64,000 nt of DNA from a phage. Below are positions 52,445 through 57,015 of the stretch, in pieces. Each line of letters starts with the position of its first letter. Positions within the stretch are counted from its first letter, which is position 1. The translations under genes were made by a program, and so were the position numbers. Below the pieces are notes generated by a model. That model was given only the letters and a program-made list of their open reading frames with translations. It did no database searches and was not told the origin of the DNA. The DNA lies in sequence record PZ402300.1; one strand, given 5' to 3'.

Positions 52445-52658
52445 AGCTATTTACACAGTAAATAGCAAAAGCTATCCATCCTGTCATTACAAAGCAACCA
52501 AGTGAGTATGCCCCATAGTAGTAGTAAGCAAACTTAGACTTGTGGGCACGGACTATTGTAGTCAGAACCAGTACAGATAAAGCTATCAGTATTAACTGAA
52601 AGATTACTTCAAAAGTGATTAGCATAGTTGCTACCTCCAAGCAAAAAATATGCCTCAC
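52443..52658 (-). CDS. Small membrane protein (2 TM)
   Basis: 71 aa; hydrophobic segments. Confidence 0.4.
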   Translation of the reverse strand: MRHIFCLEVATMLITFEVIFQLILIALSVLVLTTIVRAHKSKFAYYYYGAYSLGCFVMTGWIAFAIYCVNS

Positions 52659-52676
52659 TCCCGAAGGAATGAGGCT
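52643..52676 (-). terminator. Rho-independent terminator (UUCG loop) after the RNAP II large-subunit gene
   Basis: Minus strand GCCUCAUUCC-UUCG-GGAGUGAGGC followed by AUAUUUUUUGC. Confidence 0.55.
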
Positions 52677-52682
52677 AGTTTA

Positions 52683-52796
52683 TTAACTTAATGCATAATC
52701 TGTTTCAAGGATGTCCTGCCAGAGGCTGTCATCCAGCTTACCAGCAGAGAACTCTTGTCCCAGTACCTGAGTCAGGATGAATCCCAGTAAGTCACT
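52683..52796 (-). CDS. RNAP II large subunit, exon 3 (C-terminal segment ending …WQDILETDYALS); 5' boundary uncertain (alternative exon start 52898)
   Basis: C-terminus aligns with T7 RNAP C-terminal …LRDILESDFAFA; lies in track ORF 52683..52979 whose N-terminal part overlaps the HNH ORF and is presumed intronic. Confidence 0.45.
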   Translation of the reverse strand, partial: SDLLGFILTQVLGQEFSAGKLDDSLWQDILETDYALS

Positions 52797-53839
52797 CTTA
52801 GCAATGTCAGACAGAATCTGATTGTACTGACGACGCAGGTCATTACCGTAGTTAGGATGGCATCTAAAACCATTAGTTAAACGAGTCGTTAGCTCGCCCT
52901 TACCTTCCATGATTAACATGGAAGCCATACGTAGCATCTGCTTCTTTACGAGCAAGCATTGCCTCCTCAAGTGTGTCATACGTACCCAGACCGATCTGTT
53001 TACGATTGACTGTGATGTGTGCCTGGAATCTACCAGAAGGTAATATTCTTACACCATTCACTTTGCTTGATGTATTACGTGATAAACCCATATTCATCTG
53101 GTTCTGTCTACTGGTTACATTTCTCAGATTAGACCAACGGTTGTCGTTTCTAATGTGATTGATGTGATCCACCTGGTTAGGTGTTTCCCCTGTTTCCATT
53201 ATCCAGATTATTCGATGCAGTAAGTACTCTTTACGACCCAGACTAACAGATAAATAGCCTTCTTTGTGAGGATACCCCACAATTGTTCCGGCTAATCCAC
53301 TAGCAGAGTCGTAACGATGAGTTACTAGCCCACTTTCTCTGTCATACCGTAAAACCTTCTTCAAAGATTCTTGGGTAATAGTATCCAAGTCTTTTATCAG
53401 GTTCTTACAGGTAGGACATAGGTGGCCTATTGGACTCTTTTTAGCATCATAGAAGTTGCAAACAAACTCACTAGAGCATTGCTTACAACTACAGATAGCT
53501 GTGTACTTACCAGTTTTACGTAATATTTGGGAGTTATCTAACATATGGATTCCTTAGTAATTTTGCATACAATTTCAGATTGTATCCTAACCAAGGAAGT
53601 AAGTCTCCAGTTTTCACTGGAGTATCGGACTATATCATCACCCACTAATCAGTGGGGCAAGGCGCTTGGGTGGTCACTTGACTCACCTACTCTACTCACA
53701 TACGAAATGTTTTCGATAGTCTCTGAACCTTCCCTCATGGAGGGCTTGGCTGCTGATTGGCATATCCATAGGACTTAGCTTTCCAGCAATTCACCTTGTT
53801 TTCGACACGGATTACTCCGTGAAGGATCATTTATGTTTA
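52797..53839 (-). mobile_element. Group I intron 2 (approximate boundaries) carrying an HNH-AP2 homing endonuclease gene
   Basis: Minus-strand core elements AAUUGCUGGAAAGC (P-like), AAUCAGCAGCC (Q-like), GGUUCAGAGACUAUCG (R-like, 53714-53729) and GAUGAUAUAGUCCGAUAC (S-like, 53622-53639); begins with UAA directly after the exon-2 …VHD codon; P1 not identified, 3' end could be 52899 instead. Confidence 0.55.
52900..53544 (-). CDS. HNH homing endonuclease with C-terminal AP2-type DNA-binding domain (intron 2-encoded)
   Basis: 214 aa; HNH motif VDHINHIRNDNRWSNLRNV; AP2-like region VNGVRILPSGRFQAHITVNRKQIGLGTYDTLEEA. Confidence 0.7.
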   Translation of the reverse strand: MLDNSQILRKTGKYTAICSCKQCSSEFVCNFYDAKKSPIGHLCPTCKNLIKDLDTITQESLKKVLRYDRESGLVTHRYDSASGLAGTIVGYPHKEGYLSVSLGRKEYLLHRIIWIMETGETPNQVDHINHIRNDNRWSNLRNVTSRQNQMNMGLSRNTSSKVNGVRILPSGRFQAHITVNRKQIGLGTYDTLEEAMLARKEADATYGFHVNHGR

Positions 53840-54446
53840 ATCATGTACAGTCATTACAGGGAATGGCTTCTTAGGTAAAGTATTGAGCATAGTCAGGATT
53901 ACATCTGTATCAACCAATGCAATGGTTTCTGAGTCCAGATAATCAAAGATACGGGTAGACAGAAAGCCTGATTTCTCATAGCTAGCCCACAGTGTATTAA
54001 CCGTTTCATGACTAGCACCAGGGACAACTATGTATTCACCAGTTCCTTCACAGAGGGACTTAATATAGTTCACCTGGTTCACGTTGAAGTTACAACGACG
54101 CAGCATCTCACGTACCACCATCCCATCAATAGAGTGAGTGATGTTAGCAGAGAGCATACGGGTCTTCTCTTCAGTACCCTGAACCATACGAGTGATGTCG
54201 AATGGCTTACCTAAGAAGTTAACAGTCTGTACTTCAGGAACCATGACCTTAATGACAGCATGGAAGTTGTCAGGAAGTACCCATACGTAACGGTTAGCAT
54301 CAGGATTACCACATTGCAGTAAGAACTTGTTAAGTGCCCAAGGACCACTAGCAACAGTTTCCATTACATTCTCAAAAGTCTTGAGACGAATACCTTCACC
54401 GAATACTTCTTTAGGCTTGGCTTCTGAGCCGTAGAATGCAGTCATA
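53840..54446 (-). CDS. RNAP II large subunit, exon 2 (motif B second half through motif C region)
   Basis: Track ORF 53837..54445 (MTAFYGSEAK…VMTVHD); TAFYGS aligns to T7 RNAP TLAYGS (Y639); TLWASYEKSG aligns to T7 TVVWAHEKYG. Confidence 0.7.
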
Positions 54447-55253
54447 CATTATGTTCAAGGGAGGTCGTTAGTCTCCCCCAGCAGCTTTACCTGCATCTCA
54501 CTGTTACCAGTGAGTTCGGACTATATCATCTAGACTGATAGTCTAGCCGGGCGCTTCGACCCACTTGGGCCTACTCTACTAAGTTCAGCTTTCGCTGCTT
54601 TTCGATAGTCTCTGCACCTTTTGGTTATTCAAAACAGCATCACACATATCAATAAAGTCATTGGTTGAGAGGTCACCCTTTGCTCGGTTTACACACCAAG
54701 CTAACCATTGAACATTACCAATACTGTATCCTTTACTTGGTTCTATCTGATCTAGTGATAGACACAAAGGATGCCCCGATTCAATTACTAAGGTTGCTCC
54801 AGTTAAAGCACATTTAAATTCCTGTGATTTAAGGATTTCAAATAAATACTCTACTGTACAATCTGGCATAGGCTTACCAAACTTTTTACACCGACTTCTT
54901 GCATCCTTTAGTCTATGGGAGACTGCGGAATACCATTTACGGTGTTCTTTTGGTATTGCTTTACGAACTCCAGTTCCATTGTAACCTGGGTTCTTTTTAC
55001 GCCATTCACGAGCTACAGCAGCCTTACAGGGTCTGCAACGATTCTCGTAATTAGTTTTGAATCCTGTGAGTGATTTTTTAGTCTCTGGGAATACTTCGAT
55101 AGGAAGTAATTTTTTACATCGACTACATGTTTTGAATTCTGACATAGAATGCTCCTTATTGAACTTTCTACGCTACCAACTTGGCTCATGATTGTCCACT
55201 AGGGATGTTCCATGAGTTCACCCGGTTTTAAGGCCGCCATGACTTAAAGGTTA
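54447..55253 (-). mobile_element. Group I intron 1 (807 nt) carrying an HNH/His-Me-finger-like endonuclease ORF
   Basis: 5' exon ends GGCCGU paired with intron GCGGCC (P1, U-G at splice site); intron AGUCAUG pairs with exon-2 start UAUGACU (P10); terminal G at 54447; R-like GGUGCAGAGACUAUCG (54602-54617) and S-like GAUGAUAUAGUCCGAAC (54514-54530). Confidence 0.75.
54585..55145 (-). CDS. Intron 1-encoded putative homing endonuclease (zinc-ribbon N-terminus, degenerate HNH/His-Me finger core)
   Basis: 186 aa; CSRCKK…CRPCK Cys pairs; LSLDQIEPSKGYSIGNVQWLAWCVNRAKGD resembles an HNH-type nuclease core. Confidence 0.5.
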   Translation of the reverse strand: MSEFKTCSRCKKLLPIEVFPETKKSLTGFKTNYENRCRPCKAAVAREWRKKNPGYNGTGVRKAIPKEHRKWYSAVSHRLKDARSRCKKFGKPMPDCTVEYLFEILKSQEFKCALTGATLVIESGHPLCLSLDQIEPSKGYSIGNVQWLAWCVNRAKGDLSTNDFIDMCDAVLNNQKVQRLSKSSES

Positions 55254-55675
55254 ACGGCCTGCTTAGTGTCACTACGCTTAATACGTGATGCTTCACCAAG
55301 GATGTCCAGCATCTTGTGATAGATAACTGTATAGGCATCACGGCGTAATGGCTTACCATTCTCATCCATGTAGTTAACTACGTTACACAGTTCAGCAGCA
55401 GAGCGGTCACCAGTCAGACAGGCCAGTAACTGTAAGCCTGATGATGTAGCATCCAGAGCTACAGCATAACCAATAGGCTTACCTGCTTTCATATCTTTCC
55501 ATGCATTTACACCTGCAAAGAACAGAGCAGAATCCTCTGCTTCATCTACCAGATTAAGCAGGTTAGCTTCATTCTCATCGAACCAGGCAATACGTTCATC
55601 CCATGTCTTTTTATCTAAGCCATAGTTATTAGCGATATCTACTTTCAGGTATTCACGAGCGGTTAACAGTTGCAT
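55254..55675 (-). CDS. RNAP II large subunit, exon 1 (motif A through first half of motif B)
   Basis: Track ORF 55244..55675; ALDATSSGLQLLACLTGDRSAA aligns to T7 RNAP [22 protein letters not shown] (D537); ends RSDTKQAV. Confidence 0.7.
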
Positions 55676-55882
55676 TTTATGTTCCTTTTGCTTCTTGGCT
55701 CCCCACTATGGAGAGCCTGCTTATTGGATGATTAGGCAGTTACTACGTCAGCAGATAGTTTATAAATAATGGTTTTACTCTCAGGGTTTTGAAGCTTGTA
55801 AAGTTTCGCAAAGTATAAGCACTTCACATATGTACCCGAGTAGACACACTCCTCATTAACCCATAGCTCATAGGAGCCAATG

Positions 55883-56701
55883 TTAGTCTTCATTTACTAA
55901 CTCCTTATCAGCGAACTCCAGTACAGCTTTGTTGTAACTGGTTCCCTGATAGTTGATGTGGTAGCCACAGGCATAGGTACGCCCACGTTTGTCGTATTTG
56001 TGAGCTAAGGAGAAGTTATTACCTTCTTTGGTCACTAGCTCCATTACTTCCTTAGCTGTACGGCTGTACTTCTCAAAGGCTTTAACACGTTTTTCATAGT
56101 CCTGACGGGTTTCACCTTCTTTAGGTTTATCCATGTTAGGACGAGAGTCTTTTACATAATTAGCAACGTCCCAGTTAATGCAGAGACGTTGGTTATTCAT
56201 GCGGTTGATGTGGTCAAGACAGACATCCATCTCATGATGGTTCTTCTTGAGGATGATGCTACCTCTGCTTTCGTAGTAACCAGTATCACGATTACACTTA
56301 ACAGGCTTAGGAGCACTTACGATAGGCAATGGATACTGGAATGCTTCCAGTTCCATCTGTACATCTTCACTAATCTCATAGATAACACCTAACTTGTCGA
56401 TGGTAGGGTCATAGTTGAAGCAGTCATTCTCTGCCATCTTATACAGACAGTCAGCAATGTACTGAGCATCATCTGAATGACTCATGAGAGAGCCAATCAT
56501 AGTCTGGATGTCAGCACGCTTATGTAGAGCAATCTGCACCATTGCATCAATGAGCAGCTTATAATCAATTTCCAAATAGGCAGCAAAAGCCTTAAAGTCA
56601 ATTTCTTCGGAGTCCTCGAATTCCTTCCTCATGCGAGGGAGTAATTGATTCTTGTTGAAAAGGATTTCAAGTCGCTTCTGATGTTCAATAGATGAGTACA
56701 T
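55883..56701 (-). CDS. RNAP II small subunit (N4 gp15-like; N-terminal portion of a split T7-like RNA polymerase)
   Basis: 272 aa; C-terminal KYDKRGRTYACGYHINYQGTSYNKAVLEF aligns to T7 RNAP DWRGRVYAVSMFNPQGNDMTKGLLTL. Confidence 0.65.
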   Translation of the reverse strand: MYSSIEHQKRLEILFNKNQLLPRMRKEFEDSEEIDFKAFAAYLEIDYKLLIDAMVQIALHKRADIQTMIGSLMSHSDDAQYIADCLYKMAENDCFNYDPTIDKLGVIYEISEDVQMELEAFQYPLPIVSAPKPVKCNRDTGYYESRGSIILKKNHHEMDVCLDHINRMNNQRLCINWDVANYVKDSRPNMDKPKEGETRQDYEKRVKAFEKYSRTAKEVMELVTKEGNNFSLAHKYDKRGRTYACGYHINYQGTSYNKAVLEFADKELVNED

Positions 56702-56754
56702 CGCTTATTCTCCTAAATGTGATTAATAACCGAAAGCTGCGGAGCAGCTATTAC

Positions 56755-57015
56755 CTAACGCTTAGTCCAAAAGGCAATACGAATGCTGTTCTCTTGACCA
56801 AGATAGTTGATACGTACATATAATCCATTACCATTAAATTCTTTTCTTTTTTCCTGATAAGGCCATACCAGACTACGCATAGGTATATTAACAAAACCTG
56901 ATATGTGACCTAACTTAGTACGACCTTTTAGTTCGTTTTGTAATGCACAATAGATGTCATGTCGTGTGAGTGCTCTGGCTCTGACTTGAGCAGACCACAA
57001 TTCTTCATATGTCAT
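56755..57015 (-). CDS. Hypothetical small protein
   Basis: 86 aa ORF. Confidence 0.4.
   Translation of the reverse strand: MTYEELWSAQVRARALTRHDIYCALQNELKGRTKLGHISGFVNIPMRSLVWPYQEKRKEFNGNGLYVRINYLGQENSIRIAFWTKR

What the first reader, a model, noticed from the sequence alone, without database searches (positions are those of the whole stretch)
54447..55675. Group I intron with endonuclease ORF splits the T7-like RNAP II large-subunit gene inside polymerase motif B
Minus-strand ORF 55244..55675 ends …RSDTKQAV-NL-stop and ORF 53837..54445 begins MTAFYGS…; spliced together they read RSDTKQAVMTAFYGS, matching T7 RNAP motif B (RSVTKRSVMTLAYGS, K631/Y639). The intervening 807 nt (54447..55253) has group I hallmarks: last 5'-exon bases GGCCGU pair with intronic GCGGCC (P1, U-G at the splice site); intronic AGUCAUG just 5' of that guide pairs with exon-2 start UAUGACU (P10); the intron ends in G (54447); conserved R-like GGUGCAGAGACUAUCG and S-like GAUGAUAUAGUCCGAAC elements can form P7; and it encodes a 186-aa nuclease-like ORF. 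I do not recall an intron in the RNAP II gene of phage N4, so this may be unreported.
Basis: partly seen in the sequence, partly recalled or inferred. Interest (0 to 1): 0.85.

Follow-up and report, generated by a model that had tools for sequence, protein, structure and literature searches.

The report
Two self-splicing introns split phage RNA polymerase
The gene for the large subunit of this N4-like phage's second RNA polymerase is interrupted at its active-site codons by two mobile, self-splicing group I introns that each carry a DNA-cutting enzyme; this is a classic kind of selfish element in a gene where it had been seen but not recognised.

Summary
Window 55253..54447 (minus strand, 807 nt) is absent, to the base, from the uninterrupted gene of close relatives. 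It begins after an exon U and ends in G. It has a full group I core (P1, P3-P9.2, with P7.1/P7.2) supported by strong covariation in 11 homologues. A 186-aa HNH-like endonuclease gene sits in the P6a loop.

A second group I intron (53838..52871, 968 nt, Rfam 92.8 bits, HNH_3/AP2 endonuclease) splits the same gene at motif C. Joining the three exons gives a 405-aa protein collinear with N4 RNAPII gp16 (PDB 6DT7 chain B, E 4e-192).

Both introns are present or absent independently among near-identical phages. Between two phages they are about 95-96% identical while the exons are only 73-83% identical, which points to mobility.

The same intron and endonuclease lineage splits RNAP2 in at least five other N4-like lineages. 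Papers reported that gene as "interrupted, possibly non-functional". The lineage also splits the T7-like RNAP gene of some Autographiviridae at the same motif. It scores below Rfam's threshold, which plausibly explains why no record calls it an intron.

Verdict: real, a new member of a known kind, moderate interest. Splicing and cleavage were not tested experimentally.

The parts
55254..55675 (-). gp16 (RNAPII large subunit) exon 1, 422 nt; ends ...AAG CAG GCC GU
   Evidence: ORF list. Pfam RNA_pol hit on residues 8-125. Boundary fixed by comparison with intron-less St11Ph5.
54447..55253 (-). Intron 1: group I intron, 807 nt, IA-type (P7.1/P7.2 present), no P2. Begins UAACC, ends ...AAUG. An in-frame stop lies 4 codons into the intron.
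   Evidence: Absent to the base from St11Ph5, IME11, PGN829.1 and Moonfish. Covariation. RNAalifold. Sub-threshold Rfam hits.
55232..55244 (-). Internal guide region: P10 strand AGUCAUG (55244..55238) followed by P1 3' strand GCGGCC (55237..55232)
   Evidence: One search gives coordinates. P1: 6 pairs, 100% paired, 3 with compensatory exon/guide changes. P10: 88.7% paired.
55175..55225 (-). 5' half of the core: P3 5' (55225..55221), P4 (55215..55210 with 55191..55186), P5 (55205..55195), P6/P6a 5' strands (55185..55175)
   Evidence: Rfam local hit at 55215..55159 to model positions 60-142.
54585..55145 (-). Intron-1 ORF: 186-aa putative homing endonuclease with two CxxC pairs and an HNH-like C-terminal motif (SLDQIEPSKGY..GNVQWLAWCVNRAKGD). 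Has its own AAGGAG Shine-Dalgarno at 55157..55152. It lies in the P6a loop. Its last 41 nt also encode P6a', P6', J6/7, P7 5' and part of P7.1 (the conserved C-terminal KVQRLSK is encoded by the GGUGCAGAGACUAUCGAAA core).
   Evidence: PHROG 1035 'endonuclease VII', E 1e-31. AlphaFold model with pLDDT 87. Weak fold matches to PacI, Hpy99I, Cas9-HNH and T4 endo VII. No Pfam or NCBIfam hit.
54447..54625 (-). 3' half of the core: P6a'/P6' (54625..54616), J6/7-P7 5' (54615..54605), P7.1 (54599..54582), P7.2 (54571..54558), P3' (54551..54547), P8 (54546..54530), P7 3' (54524..54519), P9 (54514..54497), P9.1 (54494..54481), P9.2 with UAACGA loop (54477..54459), terminal G at 54447
   Evidence: Rfam 36.1 bits, E 2e-7.
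53839..54446 (-). gp16 exon 2, 608 nt; begins U AUG ACU (..V|MTAFYGS), ends ...CAU GAU U (..VHD|C)
52871..53838 (-). Intron 2: second group I intron, 968 nt, at motif C. The core P1-P9 lies at 53848..53605. The ORF is inserted after P9. The 3' tail has the same P9.2 hairpin with a CUAACGA loop and ends ...AAUG.
   Evidence: Rfam RF00028 92.8 bits, E 1.5e-22, full model. Exact boundaries from St11Ph5 and from the reading frame. 99% identical in vB_EcoP-ZQ2 and 94% in Moonfish.
52900..53544 (-). Intron-2 ORF: 214-aa HNH_3 + AP2-domain homing endonuclease
   Evidence: Pfam HNH_3 E 1e-15, AP2 E 1.4e-4. PHROG 99 E 1e-58.
52683..52870 (-). gp16 exon 3, 188 nt including the stop codon; begins GU UUU AGA UGC (C|FRCHPNYG...), ends ...ETDYALS*
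55883..56701 (-). Context: gp15-like RNAPII small subunit gene, uninterrupted
   Evidence: ORF of 272 aa. The syntenic gene is annotated as RNAP1/gp15 in relatives.

Best explanation
**What it is.** The window comes from a Gamaleyavirus (G7C/N4-like Schitoviridae). Its gp16 gene, the catalytic large subunit of the heterodimeric T7-like RNAPII that makes middle transcripts, is a three-exon gene interrupted by two mobile group I introns.

**Intron 1 (55253..54447)** sits between the 2nd and 3rd base of the Val codon in the motif B (O-helix) sequence TKQAV|MTAFYGS.

**Intron 2 (53838..52871)** sits one base after the catalytic Asp codon of motif C (VHD|CF).

**How it works (inferred).**
- After the early transcript is made, each intron folds into the group I ribozyme. 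Intron 1 has P1 with U.G at the 5' splice site, P3-P8 with the P7 pseudoknot, IA-type P7.1/P7.2, and P9-P9.2.
- Free guanosine attacks the 5' splice site. The exon-1 3'-OH then attacks after the terminal G, with P10 aligning exon 2.
- The ligated mRNA encodes a normal 405-aa gp16. Unspliced RNA yields only truncated peptides, because stop codons follow each 5' splice site within 0-4 codons.
- Each intron carries its own endonuclease gene with its own ribosome-binding site. Intron 1's is a zinc-finger plus HNH-like enzyme in the P6a loop. Intron 2's is an HNH_3/AP2 enzyme after P9.
- These enzymes most likely cut or nick intron-less gp16 alleles of co-infecting relatives. Repair then copies the intron and flanking exon bases into the cut allele (homing).

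**Shown versus inferred.** Shown in silico: boundaries, ribozyme fold, restoration of the reading frame, presence/absence polymorphism, and horizontal spread. Inferred: actual splicing, endonuclease activity, and target site.
For: **Boundaries.** The 807 nt and 968 nt are missing to the base from St11Ph5, IME11 and PGN829.1. Only one placement of each gives an exon-terminal U and an intron-terminal G.

**Ribozyme fold.** Intron 2 scores 92.8 bits against RF00028 over the full model. For intron 1, 72 pairs in 14 helices are 97.8% paired across 11 homologues. 39 pairs carry compensatory changes, 0 of 500 shuffles match this, and slid controls give 31-38%. The covarying pairs include exon/guide pairs in P1 and the long-range P3, P6 and P6a pairs that span the ORF. 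RNAalifold independently predicts the same helices, with 40 of 72 pairs compensatory. The MFE z-score is -4.3.

**Product.** The spliced protein aligns over residues 1-405 with residues 1-404 of N4 RNAP2 (6dt7_B), E 4.4e-192, with no gap at either junction. The Pfam RNA_pol match extends across junction 1, from residues 8-125 to 8-148 and from 42 to 54 bits.

**Mobility.**
- All four states exist among close relatives: both introns (window; GCA_026132285 contig), intron 1 only (ERZ27280694, ERZ929308), intron 2 only (Moonfish), and neither (St11Ph5 and others).
- Window versus GCA_026132285: exons are 73-83% identical, intron 1 is 96.4% and intron 2 is 95.1%.
- Every intron-1-plus allele has GCC-GU, which pairs with the guide. 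Every intron-less allele shown has GCA-GU.
- At site 2 there are five synonymous differences within 10 nt of the junction.

**Endonucleases.**

**Distribution.** All 8 metagenomic contexts sampled for the intron-1 endonuclease family lie between RNAP2 exons. The same holds in six GenBank lineages.
Against: - No RNA or biochemical data exist, so splicing and cleavage are inferred.
- Intron 1 fails the Rfam gathering score (36.1 and 16.7 bits against 50).
- Intron 1 has no P2, which many IA introns have.
- The intron-1 endonuclease lacks the canonical first His of the HNH motif (D-Q/K instead of D-H), gets no Pfam or NCBIfam hit, and has only weak fold matches, the best real hit being PacI at E 2.9e-3. 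It could therefore be inactive or have a different activity.
- The covariation set was assembled and the helices drawn by me from these same sequences, which inflates 'cells paired'. The compensatory-change counts and RNAalifold are less affected.
Confidence: 0.92

Rival explanations
1. Split gene without splicing. A free-standing homing endonuclease gene has inserted into gp16, and the pieces (143 aa, 202 aa, about 60 aa) are translated separately and assemble into an active multi-piece polymerase. This is how split genes next to free-standing endonucleases are described in some T4-like phages, and it is how public records annotate this gene.
For: Exon 2 happens to start with an AUG codon (MTAFYGS). 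GenBank records annotate the pieces as separate CDSs. N4 RNAPII is already a two-piece version of a single-subunit enzyme (PMC4496689).
Against: The intervening DNA has a complete, covarying group I core whose P1 pairs covary with the exon codons. Exon 3 begins mid-codon with no start codon, and no Shine-Dalgarno is visible ahead of exon 2. Exon 1 has no stop codon of its own; its reading frame ends only at a stop inside the intron. The break points fall inside the O-helix and one base after the catalytic Asp codon, which are very unlikely places for a tolerated protein split. The Met at the start of exon 2 is the conserved motif-B Met in uninterrupted genes.
Confidence: 0.03
2. Decayed element. 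The introns are real group I sequences but no longer splice efficiently, or their endonucleases are dead, so they are immobile relics, or gp16 is a pseudogene in this phage.
For: The canonical HNH His is absent from the intron-1 enzyme. There is no P2. The Rfam score is sub-threshold.
Against: gp16 is required for N4 middle transcription (PMC4496689), and the exons are intact and in frame. All helices are maintained by compensatory changes across distant phages. The endonuclease is conserved, with 26 invariant columns in 50 homologues and no frameshifts. The introns are about 96% identical between phages whose exons are 73-83% identical, which implies recent transfer.
Confidence: 0.05
3. Intein or translated insertion. 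The extra sequence is part of the protein and is removed after translation, or is kept as an insertion domain.
For: None beyond the location at an active-site motif, which inteins also favour.
Against: Stop codons follow both 5' junctions within 0-4 codons. The ORFs are in other frames, with their own start codons and ribosome-binding sites. No intein motifs were found.
Confidence: 0

Closest known systems
Phage group I introns of the IA type with intron-encoded endonucleases (T4 td, nrdB and nrdD; SPO1, Bastille, LUZ24 and T7-like DNA polymerase introns)
   Same: Self-splicing group I core with P7.1/P7.2. U/G boundaries. The ORF is looped out of a peripheral helix (P6a or P9) and its 3' end runs into the core. 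Insertion is at active-site codons of an essential nucleic-acid enzyme. Distribution among close relatives is sporadic. (Established knowledge; PMC12908238, PMC10914365, PMC3428280.)
   Different: The host gene is a single-subunit (T7-like) RNA polymerase rather than a DNA-metabolism gene. Intron 1 lacks P2. Its endonuclease belongs to a family with no Pfam or NCBIfam model and without the canonical HNH histidine.
Split RNAP2 of Achromobacter phages JWAlpha/JWDelta, and of Vibrio phi 1, pVco-5, Burkholderia vB_BpP_HN02 and Acinetobacter XC38
   Same: The same intron lineage and the same endonuclease family (40-54% identity). The insertion point is the same for JWAlpha, HN02, phi 1 and pVco-5.
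   Different: Published and annotated as an 'interrupted' or duplicated gene of doubtful function, not as an intron (PMC3915230, PMC4193335, PMC4837373). XC38 and three metagenomic relatives carry the intron 7 nt further downstream (ATGACCU|) and have a P2 hairpin. Those genomes lack the second, motif-C intron in the stretches examined.
PhiPA3 intron endonuclease in a multisubunit RNAP gene of nucleus-forming jumbo phages
   Same: A group I intron with a homing endonuclease interrupting a phage RNA polymerase gene. There it was shown to give a competitive advantage against an intron-less co-infecting phage (PMC12908238).
   Different: That polymerase is an unrelated multisubunit beta/beta'-like enzyme in a different phage group. 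No competition data exist for the introns described here.
[quoted passage not shown]
   Same: Precedent for group I introns in Schitoviridae (PMC5746245, PMC3670811).
   Different: Different genes (td; gp24, DNA polymerase and gp43 homologues). Neither paper reports an RNAP2 intron.

Membership tests
Group I intron (Rfam RF00028) | 5' exon ends in U paired with G of an internal guide (P1); intron ends in G | tested here: met
   Intron 1: GGCCGU|/GCGGCC with U.G invariant in 11/11 homologues and 3 P1 pairs compensatory; last base G at 54447. Intron 2...GAUU| with U.G in the Rfam alignment; last base G at 52871.
Group I intron (Rfam RF00028) | Conserved core helices P3-P8, including the P3/P7 pseudoknot | tested here: met
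   P3, P4, P5, P6/P6a, P7 and P8 are 94-100% paired. All except the invariant P7 have compensatory changes. RNAalifold agrees for all nested helices.
Group I intron (Rfam RF00028) | Covariance-model score at or above the curated gathering score (50 bits) | tested here: inconclusive
   Intron 2: 92.8 bits, met. Intron 1: not reached, with no hit in the whole-window scan and 36.1 + 16.7 bits as two pieces in a local scan. Homologues score 28-43 bits. The 549-nt P6a loop separates the two halves of the core. An ORF-deleted sequence could not be scored with the tools available.
Group I intron (Rfam RF00028) | Precise excision restores the host reading frame | tested here: met
   The 405-aa product is collinear with N4 gp16 (6dt7_B), E 4.4e-192, with no gaps at the junctions.
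Group I intron (Rfam RF00028) | Guanosine-dependent self-splicing | not testable with these tools
   Needs in vitro transcription and splicing, or RNA from infected cells.
Subgroup IA (phage-type) group I introns | Extra helices P7.1 and P7.2 between P7 and P3' | tested here: met
   Helices 9 and 10 are 96-100% paired, and 7 of their 11 pairs are compensatory. The junction motif AGUAGAGUAG..AAGU..CGAAGYGC occurs in 83 IMG/VR contigs and in T4-like Aeromonas phage sequences. Assignment to a finer subgroup (IA1 or IA2) was not tested.
Mobile (homing) intron | Presence/absence polymorphism at one exact site among close relatives; intron phylogeny decoupled from the host gene | tested here: met
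   All four intron states were found. Introns are 95-96% identical against 73-83% for the exons. Synonymous exon changes are linked to intron presence.
Mobile (homing) intron | The encoded endonuclease cleaves the intron-less allele | not testable with these tools
   Needs expression of the ORF and a cleavage assay on the St11Ph5-type target.
HNH / beta-beta-alpha-Me endonucleases (intron-1 ORF) | beta-beta-alpha-metal fold | tested here: inconclusive
   The AlphaFold model (pLDDT 87) shows two strands followed by a helix over residues 128-158. Foldseek hits are mostly HNH nucleases (PacI E 2.9e-3, Hpy99I, Cas9 HNH, Gme HNH, T4 endo VII), but none reaches E <= 1e-3. PHROG 1035 'endonuclease VII' matches at E 1e-31.
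HNH / beta-beta-alpha-Me endonucleases (intron-1 ORF) | Canonical catalytic His of the (D/E)H...N...H/N motif; match to Pfam HNH models | tested here: not met
   D132 is invariant, but the next residue is Q in this protein and Q or K among the six phage homologues aligned, not His. N144 and N153 are conserved. There is no Pfam or NCBIfam hit. G139-Y140 is invariant. From memory, PacI uses a Tyr in place of the His; this was not tested.
HNH_3 homing endonucleases (intron-2 ORF) | Pfam HNH_3 domain above threshold | tested here: met
   PF13392: 57.5 bits against a cut-off of 24.8. The AP2 match is sub-threshold.
N4 RNAPII large subunit (gp16) | Full-length similarity to N4 gp16; synteny with gp15 | tested here: met
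   for the full-length match. The gp15-like gene lies immediately upstream. PMC4496689 places motifs A, B and C in gp16.

The most novel reading that the evidence does not exclude
One intron and endonuclease lineage has colonised the same active-site (motif B, O-helix) codons of single-subunit RNA polymerase genes in two phage families: Schitoviridae RNAPII and Autographiviridae RNAP. In this phage it is paired with a second intron at motif C.

The more novel reading is that the introns are more than passengers. gp16 is needed for all middle transcription, so the two ribozymes in the early transcript could gate the early-to-middle switch. Their endonucleases could also disable intron-less RNAP genes of co-infecting phages, giving interference competition of the kind shown for phiPA3.

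The cross-family distribution is essentially shown here. The gating and competition roles are speculation.
Probability: 0.2. Interest if true: 0.7.

Novelty: new member of a known kind. Interest (0 to 1): 0.45.

Why it matters
- It settles a question left open in the N4-like phage literature. [quoted passage not shown] The gene is almost certainly intact after RNA splicing.
- It shows that a whole intron lineage is not labelled as an intron in the public records examined. Its members score 28-43 bits against Rfam's 50-bit cut-off, and its endonuclease has no Pfam model. As a result, core polymerase genes in Schitoviridae and some Autographiviridae are annotated as fragments.
- It adds single-subunit RNA polymerase genes to the list of phage genes invaded at active-site codons.
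- It offers a tractable E. coli phage system with all four intron states among near-identical phages. This could be used to study homing, co-conversion and possible intron-mediated competition.
- The endonuclease family may be a source of new site-specific nucleases.

Tried and rejected
- **Rfam, whole window at gathering threshold.** No hit for intron 1. This was rejected as evidence against the intron after the local scan and the covariation analysis.
- **Protein-family searches on the 186-aa ORF.** Pfam and NCBIfam gave nothing. A PDB sequence search with a 6-sequence profile gave only chance-level hits, with PacI at E 0.64.
- **Formal pair count including P2-bearing relatives.** MAFFT misaligned P1/P2, P7.1 and P9.1 for phi 1 and pVco-5 (A2). 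The count therefore used 11 P2-less site-A introns (A3). The P2-bearing and Autographiviridae members were inspected only by eye.
- **Search for intron 1 elsewhere.** No near match in GenBank phages; the best was 73% to Burkholderia phages. No match in complete E. coli genomes.
- **Literature.** Nine full-text searches found no paper that calls the RNAP2 or T7-like RNAP interruption an intron. Absence from this library does not prove absence from the literature.
- **Rejected explanations.** Separately translated subunits with a free-standing endonuclease, an intein, and a pseudogene (see the rival explanations).
- **Not pursued.** Homology between the RNAP site and the motif-B site of the DNA polymerase I intron of phage Bas89. 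The exon DNA sequences are not similar.
Full report
**Source and gene.** The region 52600..56800 is 90-96% identical, piecewise, to Gamaleyavirus (G7C-like, N4-like Schitoviridae) coliphages. On the minus strand, a 272-aa gp15-like gene (56701..55883) is followed by ORFs that match the T7-like RNA polymerase family only in fragments. In phage St11Ph5 (MG208881) the orthologous gp16 gene is one uninterrupted 1218-nt CDS.

**Observation check.** BLAST of the window against St11Ph5, IME11 and PGN829.1 shows collinear identity that stops at window 55252 and resumes at 54446. It stops again at 53841 and resumes at 52862.

- At the first gap the two alignments overlap by 2 nt (TA/TA).
These are P1 (GGCCGU/GCGGCC), P10 (AGUCAUG/UAUGACU), the terminal G, the R-like and S-like elements that form P7, and the 186-aa ORF.

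**The gene is split twice.** It did find a full-length group I hit (92.8 bits, E 1.5e-22) at 53848..53605, immediately after 'exon 2'.

- Reading-frame analysis against St11Ph5 fixes this second intron at 53838..52871 (968 nt). The exon ends ...CAUGAUU, with its last U paired to G in the Rfam alignment, and the intron ends in G.
- Joining gives VHD|CFRCHPNYG, identical to St11Ph5.
- Intron 2 carries a 214-aa HNH_3/AP2 endonuclease (53544..52900) downstream of P9.

The three exons (422, 608 and 188 nt) splice to 405 aa. This protein aligns over residues 1-405 with residues 1-404 of the solved N4 RNAP2 (6dt7_B), E 4.4e-192, with no gap at either junction. The Pfam RNA_pol match, which stops at residue 125 in exon 1 alone, extends to residue 148 across junction 1 in the spliced protein. 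gp16 holds motifs A, B and C and is required for middle transcription (PMC4496689). From established knowledge of T7 RNAP, intron 1 lies between the residues equivalent to K631 and Y639, and intron 2 lies just after the equivalent of D812.

**Is intron 1 a real ribozyme?** A local Rfam scan gives 36.1 bits (E 2e-7) for 54769..54497 and 16.7 bits for P4-P6 at 55215..55159. Both are below the 50-bit gathering score. The two halves of the core are separated by a 549-nt P6a loop that holds the ORF.

I therefore collected homologues.

- The endonuclease has at least 159 relatives.
- In GenBank it lies between two RNAP2 fragments in Burkholderia phages HN02/04/05, Achromobacter JWAlpha/JWDelta, Vibrio phi 1 and pVco-5/7, and Acinetobacter XC38.
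- In all 8 metagenomic or assembly contexts sampled it lies between an RNA_pol-positive exon 1 and an exon 2, on contigs of about 72-77 kb.

I removed the ORF loop, aligned 11 introns from the same insertion site (A3) and wrote out the group I structure.

| Measure | Result |
|---|---|
| Pairs / helices tested | 72 / 14 |
| Cells forming standard pairs | 97.8% |
| Pairs with compensatory double changes | 39 (121 cells) |
| Shuffles reaching the observed values | 0 of 500 |
| Pairing when the 3' partner is slid 1-3 columns | 31-38% |
| RNAalifold pairs with compensatory changes | 40 of 72 |
| MFE of the ORF-deleted window intron | -95 kcal/mol, z = -4.3 |

- Covariation includes three P1 pairs between exon codons and the guide sequence (GCC-GU, GCG-AU, GCC-AU, GCG-GU).
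- It also includes the long-range P3, P6 and P6a pairs that bridge the ORF.
- RNAalifold, run without my structure, returns the same P1, P3, P4, P5, P6a, P7.1, P7.2, P8, P9, P9.1 and P9.2.
- The MFE fold of the ORF-deleted window intron recovers most of these helices.
- P7.1 and P7.2 mark the intron as IA-type. There is no room for P2 (6 nt between P1 and P3), although phi 1, pVco-5, XC38 and others have a P2 hairpin.
- The ORF's last 41 nt double as P6a', P6', J6/7, the P7 5' strand and part of P7.1. This explains the conserved C-terminal peptide KVQRLSK.

**Mobility.** Among near-identical Gamaleyavirus sequences all four states occur.

| State | Examples |
|---|---|
| Both introns | window; a 74.8-kb contig in assembly GCA_026132285.1 |
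| Intron 1 only | ERZ27280694, ERZ929308 |
| Intron 2 only | Shigella phage Moonfish |
| Neither | St11Ph5, IME11, PGN829.1 and most others |

- vB_EcoP-ZQ2 also carries intron 2 at 99% identity. Its intron-1 state was not checked.
- Between the window and the GCA_026132285 contig, gp15 is 84% identical and the three exons are 81%, 73% and 83% identical. Intron 1 is 96.4% and intron 2 is 95.1% identical. The introns have therefore moved between diverged phages recently.
- All ten intron-1-plus alleles listed read CAGGCCGU|, where the C pairs with the guide. The four intron-less alleles examined read GCAGU at the same codon.
- At site 2 the intron-plus allele (GAU U|GU UUU AGA) differs from intron-less alleles (GAC UGC UUC CGU) by five synonymous changes within 10 nt.
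- These patterns fit co-conversion, or selection for P1/P10 pairing and loss of the target site.

**The endonuclease of intron 1.**
- It has two CxxC pairs and a C-terminal motif S-L-D-(Q/K)-I-x-P-x-x-G-Y-x-x-G-N-V-Q-W-x-x-W-x-x-N-R-A-K-G, with 26 invariant columns in 50 homologues.
- PHROG 1035 ('endonuclease VII') matches at E 1e-31.
- The AlphaFold model (pLDDT 87) has two strands followed by a helix in the motif region.
- Its best meaningful fold matches are HNH-type nucleases (PacI, Hpy99I, Cas9 HNH, Gme HNH, T4 endo VII), but all are weak, with none at E <= 1e-3.
- The canonical first histidine is replaced by Q or K, so catalytic competence is inferred rather than shown. From memory, PacI uses a tyrosine at this step, and G-Y is invariant here. 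That is a lead, not a test.

**Wider distribution.**
- The same intron and endonuclease lineage interrupts the single-subunit RNAP gene of Autographiviridae. Examples are Pectobacterium PPWS1 and Pseudomonas Drael01 and two IMG/VR contigs. The insertion is at the homologous motif-B position (KRPV|MTYVYG), and P1 guides are complementary to their own exons.
- A sub-lineage (XC38, L026, L029, L143) sits 7 nt downstream, at AUGACCU|.
- A related endonuclease lies in an intron, annotated as a joined CDS, in DNA polymerase I of phage Bas89.
- All members scanned score 28-43 bits against RF00028. This plausibly explains why no record labels them as introns.

**Literature.**
- Group I introns in N4-like phages are reported for td (PMC5746245) and suspected in other genes (PMC3670811).
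[quoted passage not shown] - Nine full-text searches found no paper that interprets it as an intron.
- An intron with an endonuclease in a multisubunit RNAP gene of jumbo phage phiPA3 is known and confers a competitive advantage (PMC12908238).

**Verdict.**
- It is a textbook kind of element (a mobile group I intron with a homing endonuclease at active-site codons of an essential phage gene) in a host gene where it had not been recognised.
- I file it as a new member of a known kind, of moderate interest (0.45).
- Its value lies in correcting annotations, resolving a published puzzle, the cross-family targeting of RNAP motif B, and a convenient system for homing and competition experiments.
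- Splicing and cleavage remain to be shown experimentally.

Noticed in passing
window 52871..53838 (-): A second group I intron (Rfam 92.8 bits) with an HNH_3/AP2 endonuclease splits the same gp16 gene one base after the motif-C Asp codon. It was not part of the finding as given. It is 99% identical in vB_EcoP-ZQ2 and 94% in Moonfish, where it is annotated only as separate CDSs.
   Followed up: yes
window 53839..54446 (-) versus L002/L004/L010: Exon 2, the stretch between the two introns, is mosaic. It is about 84-86% identical to St11Ph5, while exons 1 and 3 are 95-97%. It is 92.6% identical to PGN829.1. This may be a recombination or co-conversion tract linked to homing.
   Followed up: partly
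window 54459..54477 and 52882..52898 (-): Both introns end with a P9.2-like hairpin whose loop holds a conserved UAACGA, followed by about 10 nt ending AAUG. The loop is invariant (UAACG) across the 11 aligned site-A introns while the stem covaries. This suggests a tertiary contact, but no partner was identified.
   Followed up: no
L030/L058 (PPWS1), L059 (Drael01), L032, L035: The same intron and endonuclease lineage splits the T7-like RNAP gene of Autographiviridae at the homologous motif-B codons (KRPV|MTYVYG). The records annotate two 'RNA polymerase' CDSs and a hypothetical protein.
   Followed up: partly
L009 (XC38), L026, L029, L143: A sister group of these introns sits 7 nt downstream of the window's site (..AUGACCU|). 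These introns have a P2 hairpin and a shorter P7.1, which looks like a shifted homing site within the same O-helix codons.
   Followed up: partly
L149 (Escherichia phage KarlSchell_Bas89) 1007..3631: A related endonuclease (40% identity) lies in an intron within motif B of DNA polymerase I (..AKTFIYAFN|YGAGD). The depositors annotated this as a joined CDS. KBNP1711 has the same endonuclease. The 5' core of that intron resembles intron 2 of the window.
   Followed up: partly
one search hits H52-H74 (Aeromonas T4-like phages: phage 25, Aes508, phiAS4 and others): About 75-100 nt of the P7.1-P7.2-P3' core of intron 1 matches, at 77-83% identity, sequences in or next to the 'split DNA polymerase 43A/43B' region of Aeromonas phages. 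Those split genes may also hold unannotated group I intron cores.
   Followed up: no
window 55676..55882 versus L001, L004, L011, L012, L015: The gp15-gp16 spacer is a hot spot for selfish genes in relatives. Examples are the PGN829.1 'putative HNH homing endonuclease' gp15.1, Moonfish gp58, a 202-aa ORF in L011/L012, and an HNH_3 ORF in L015. The window has only a 53-aa ORF there (55732..55893).
   Followed up: no
L010 = GCA_026132285.1 contig JANDFC010000012 (74,785 bp): An assembly labelled Salmonella enterica holds what looks like a complete N4-like phage genome carrying both introns. It is probably a phage contig within a bacterial assembly.
   Followed up: no
window 25093..25166 and 25175..25247 (-): Two adjacent tRNA genes (Rfam tRNA, 64.8 and 42.0 bits).
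   Followed up: no
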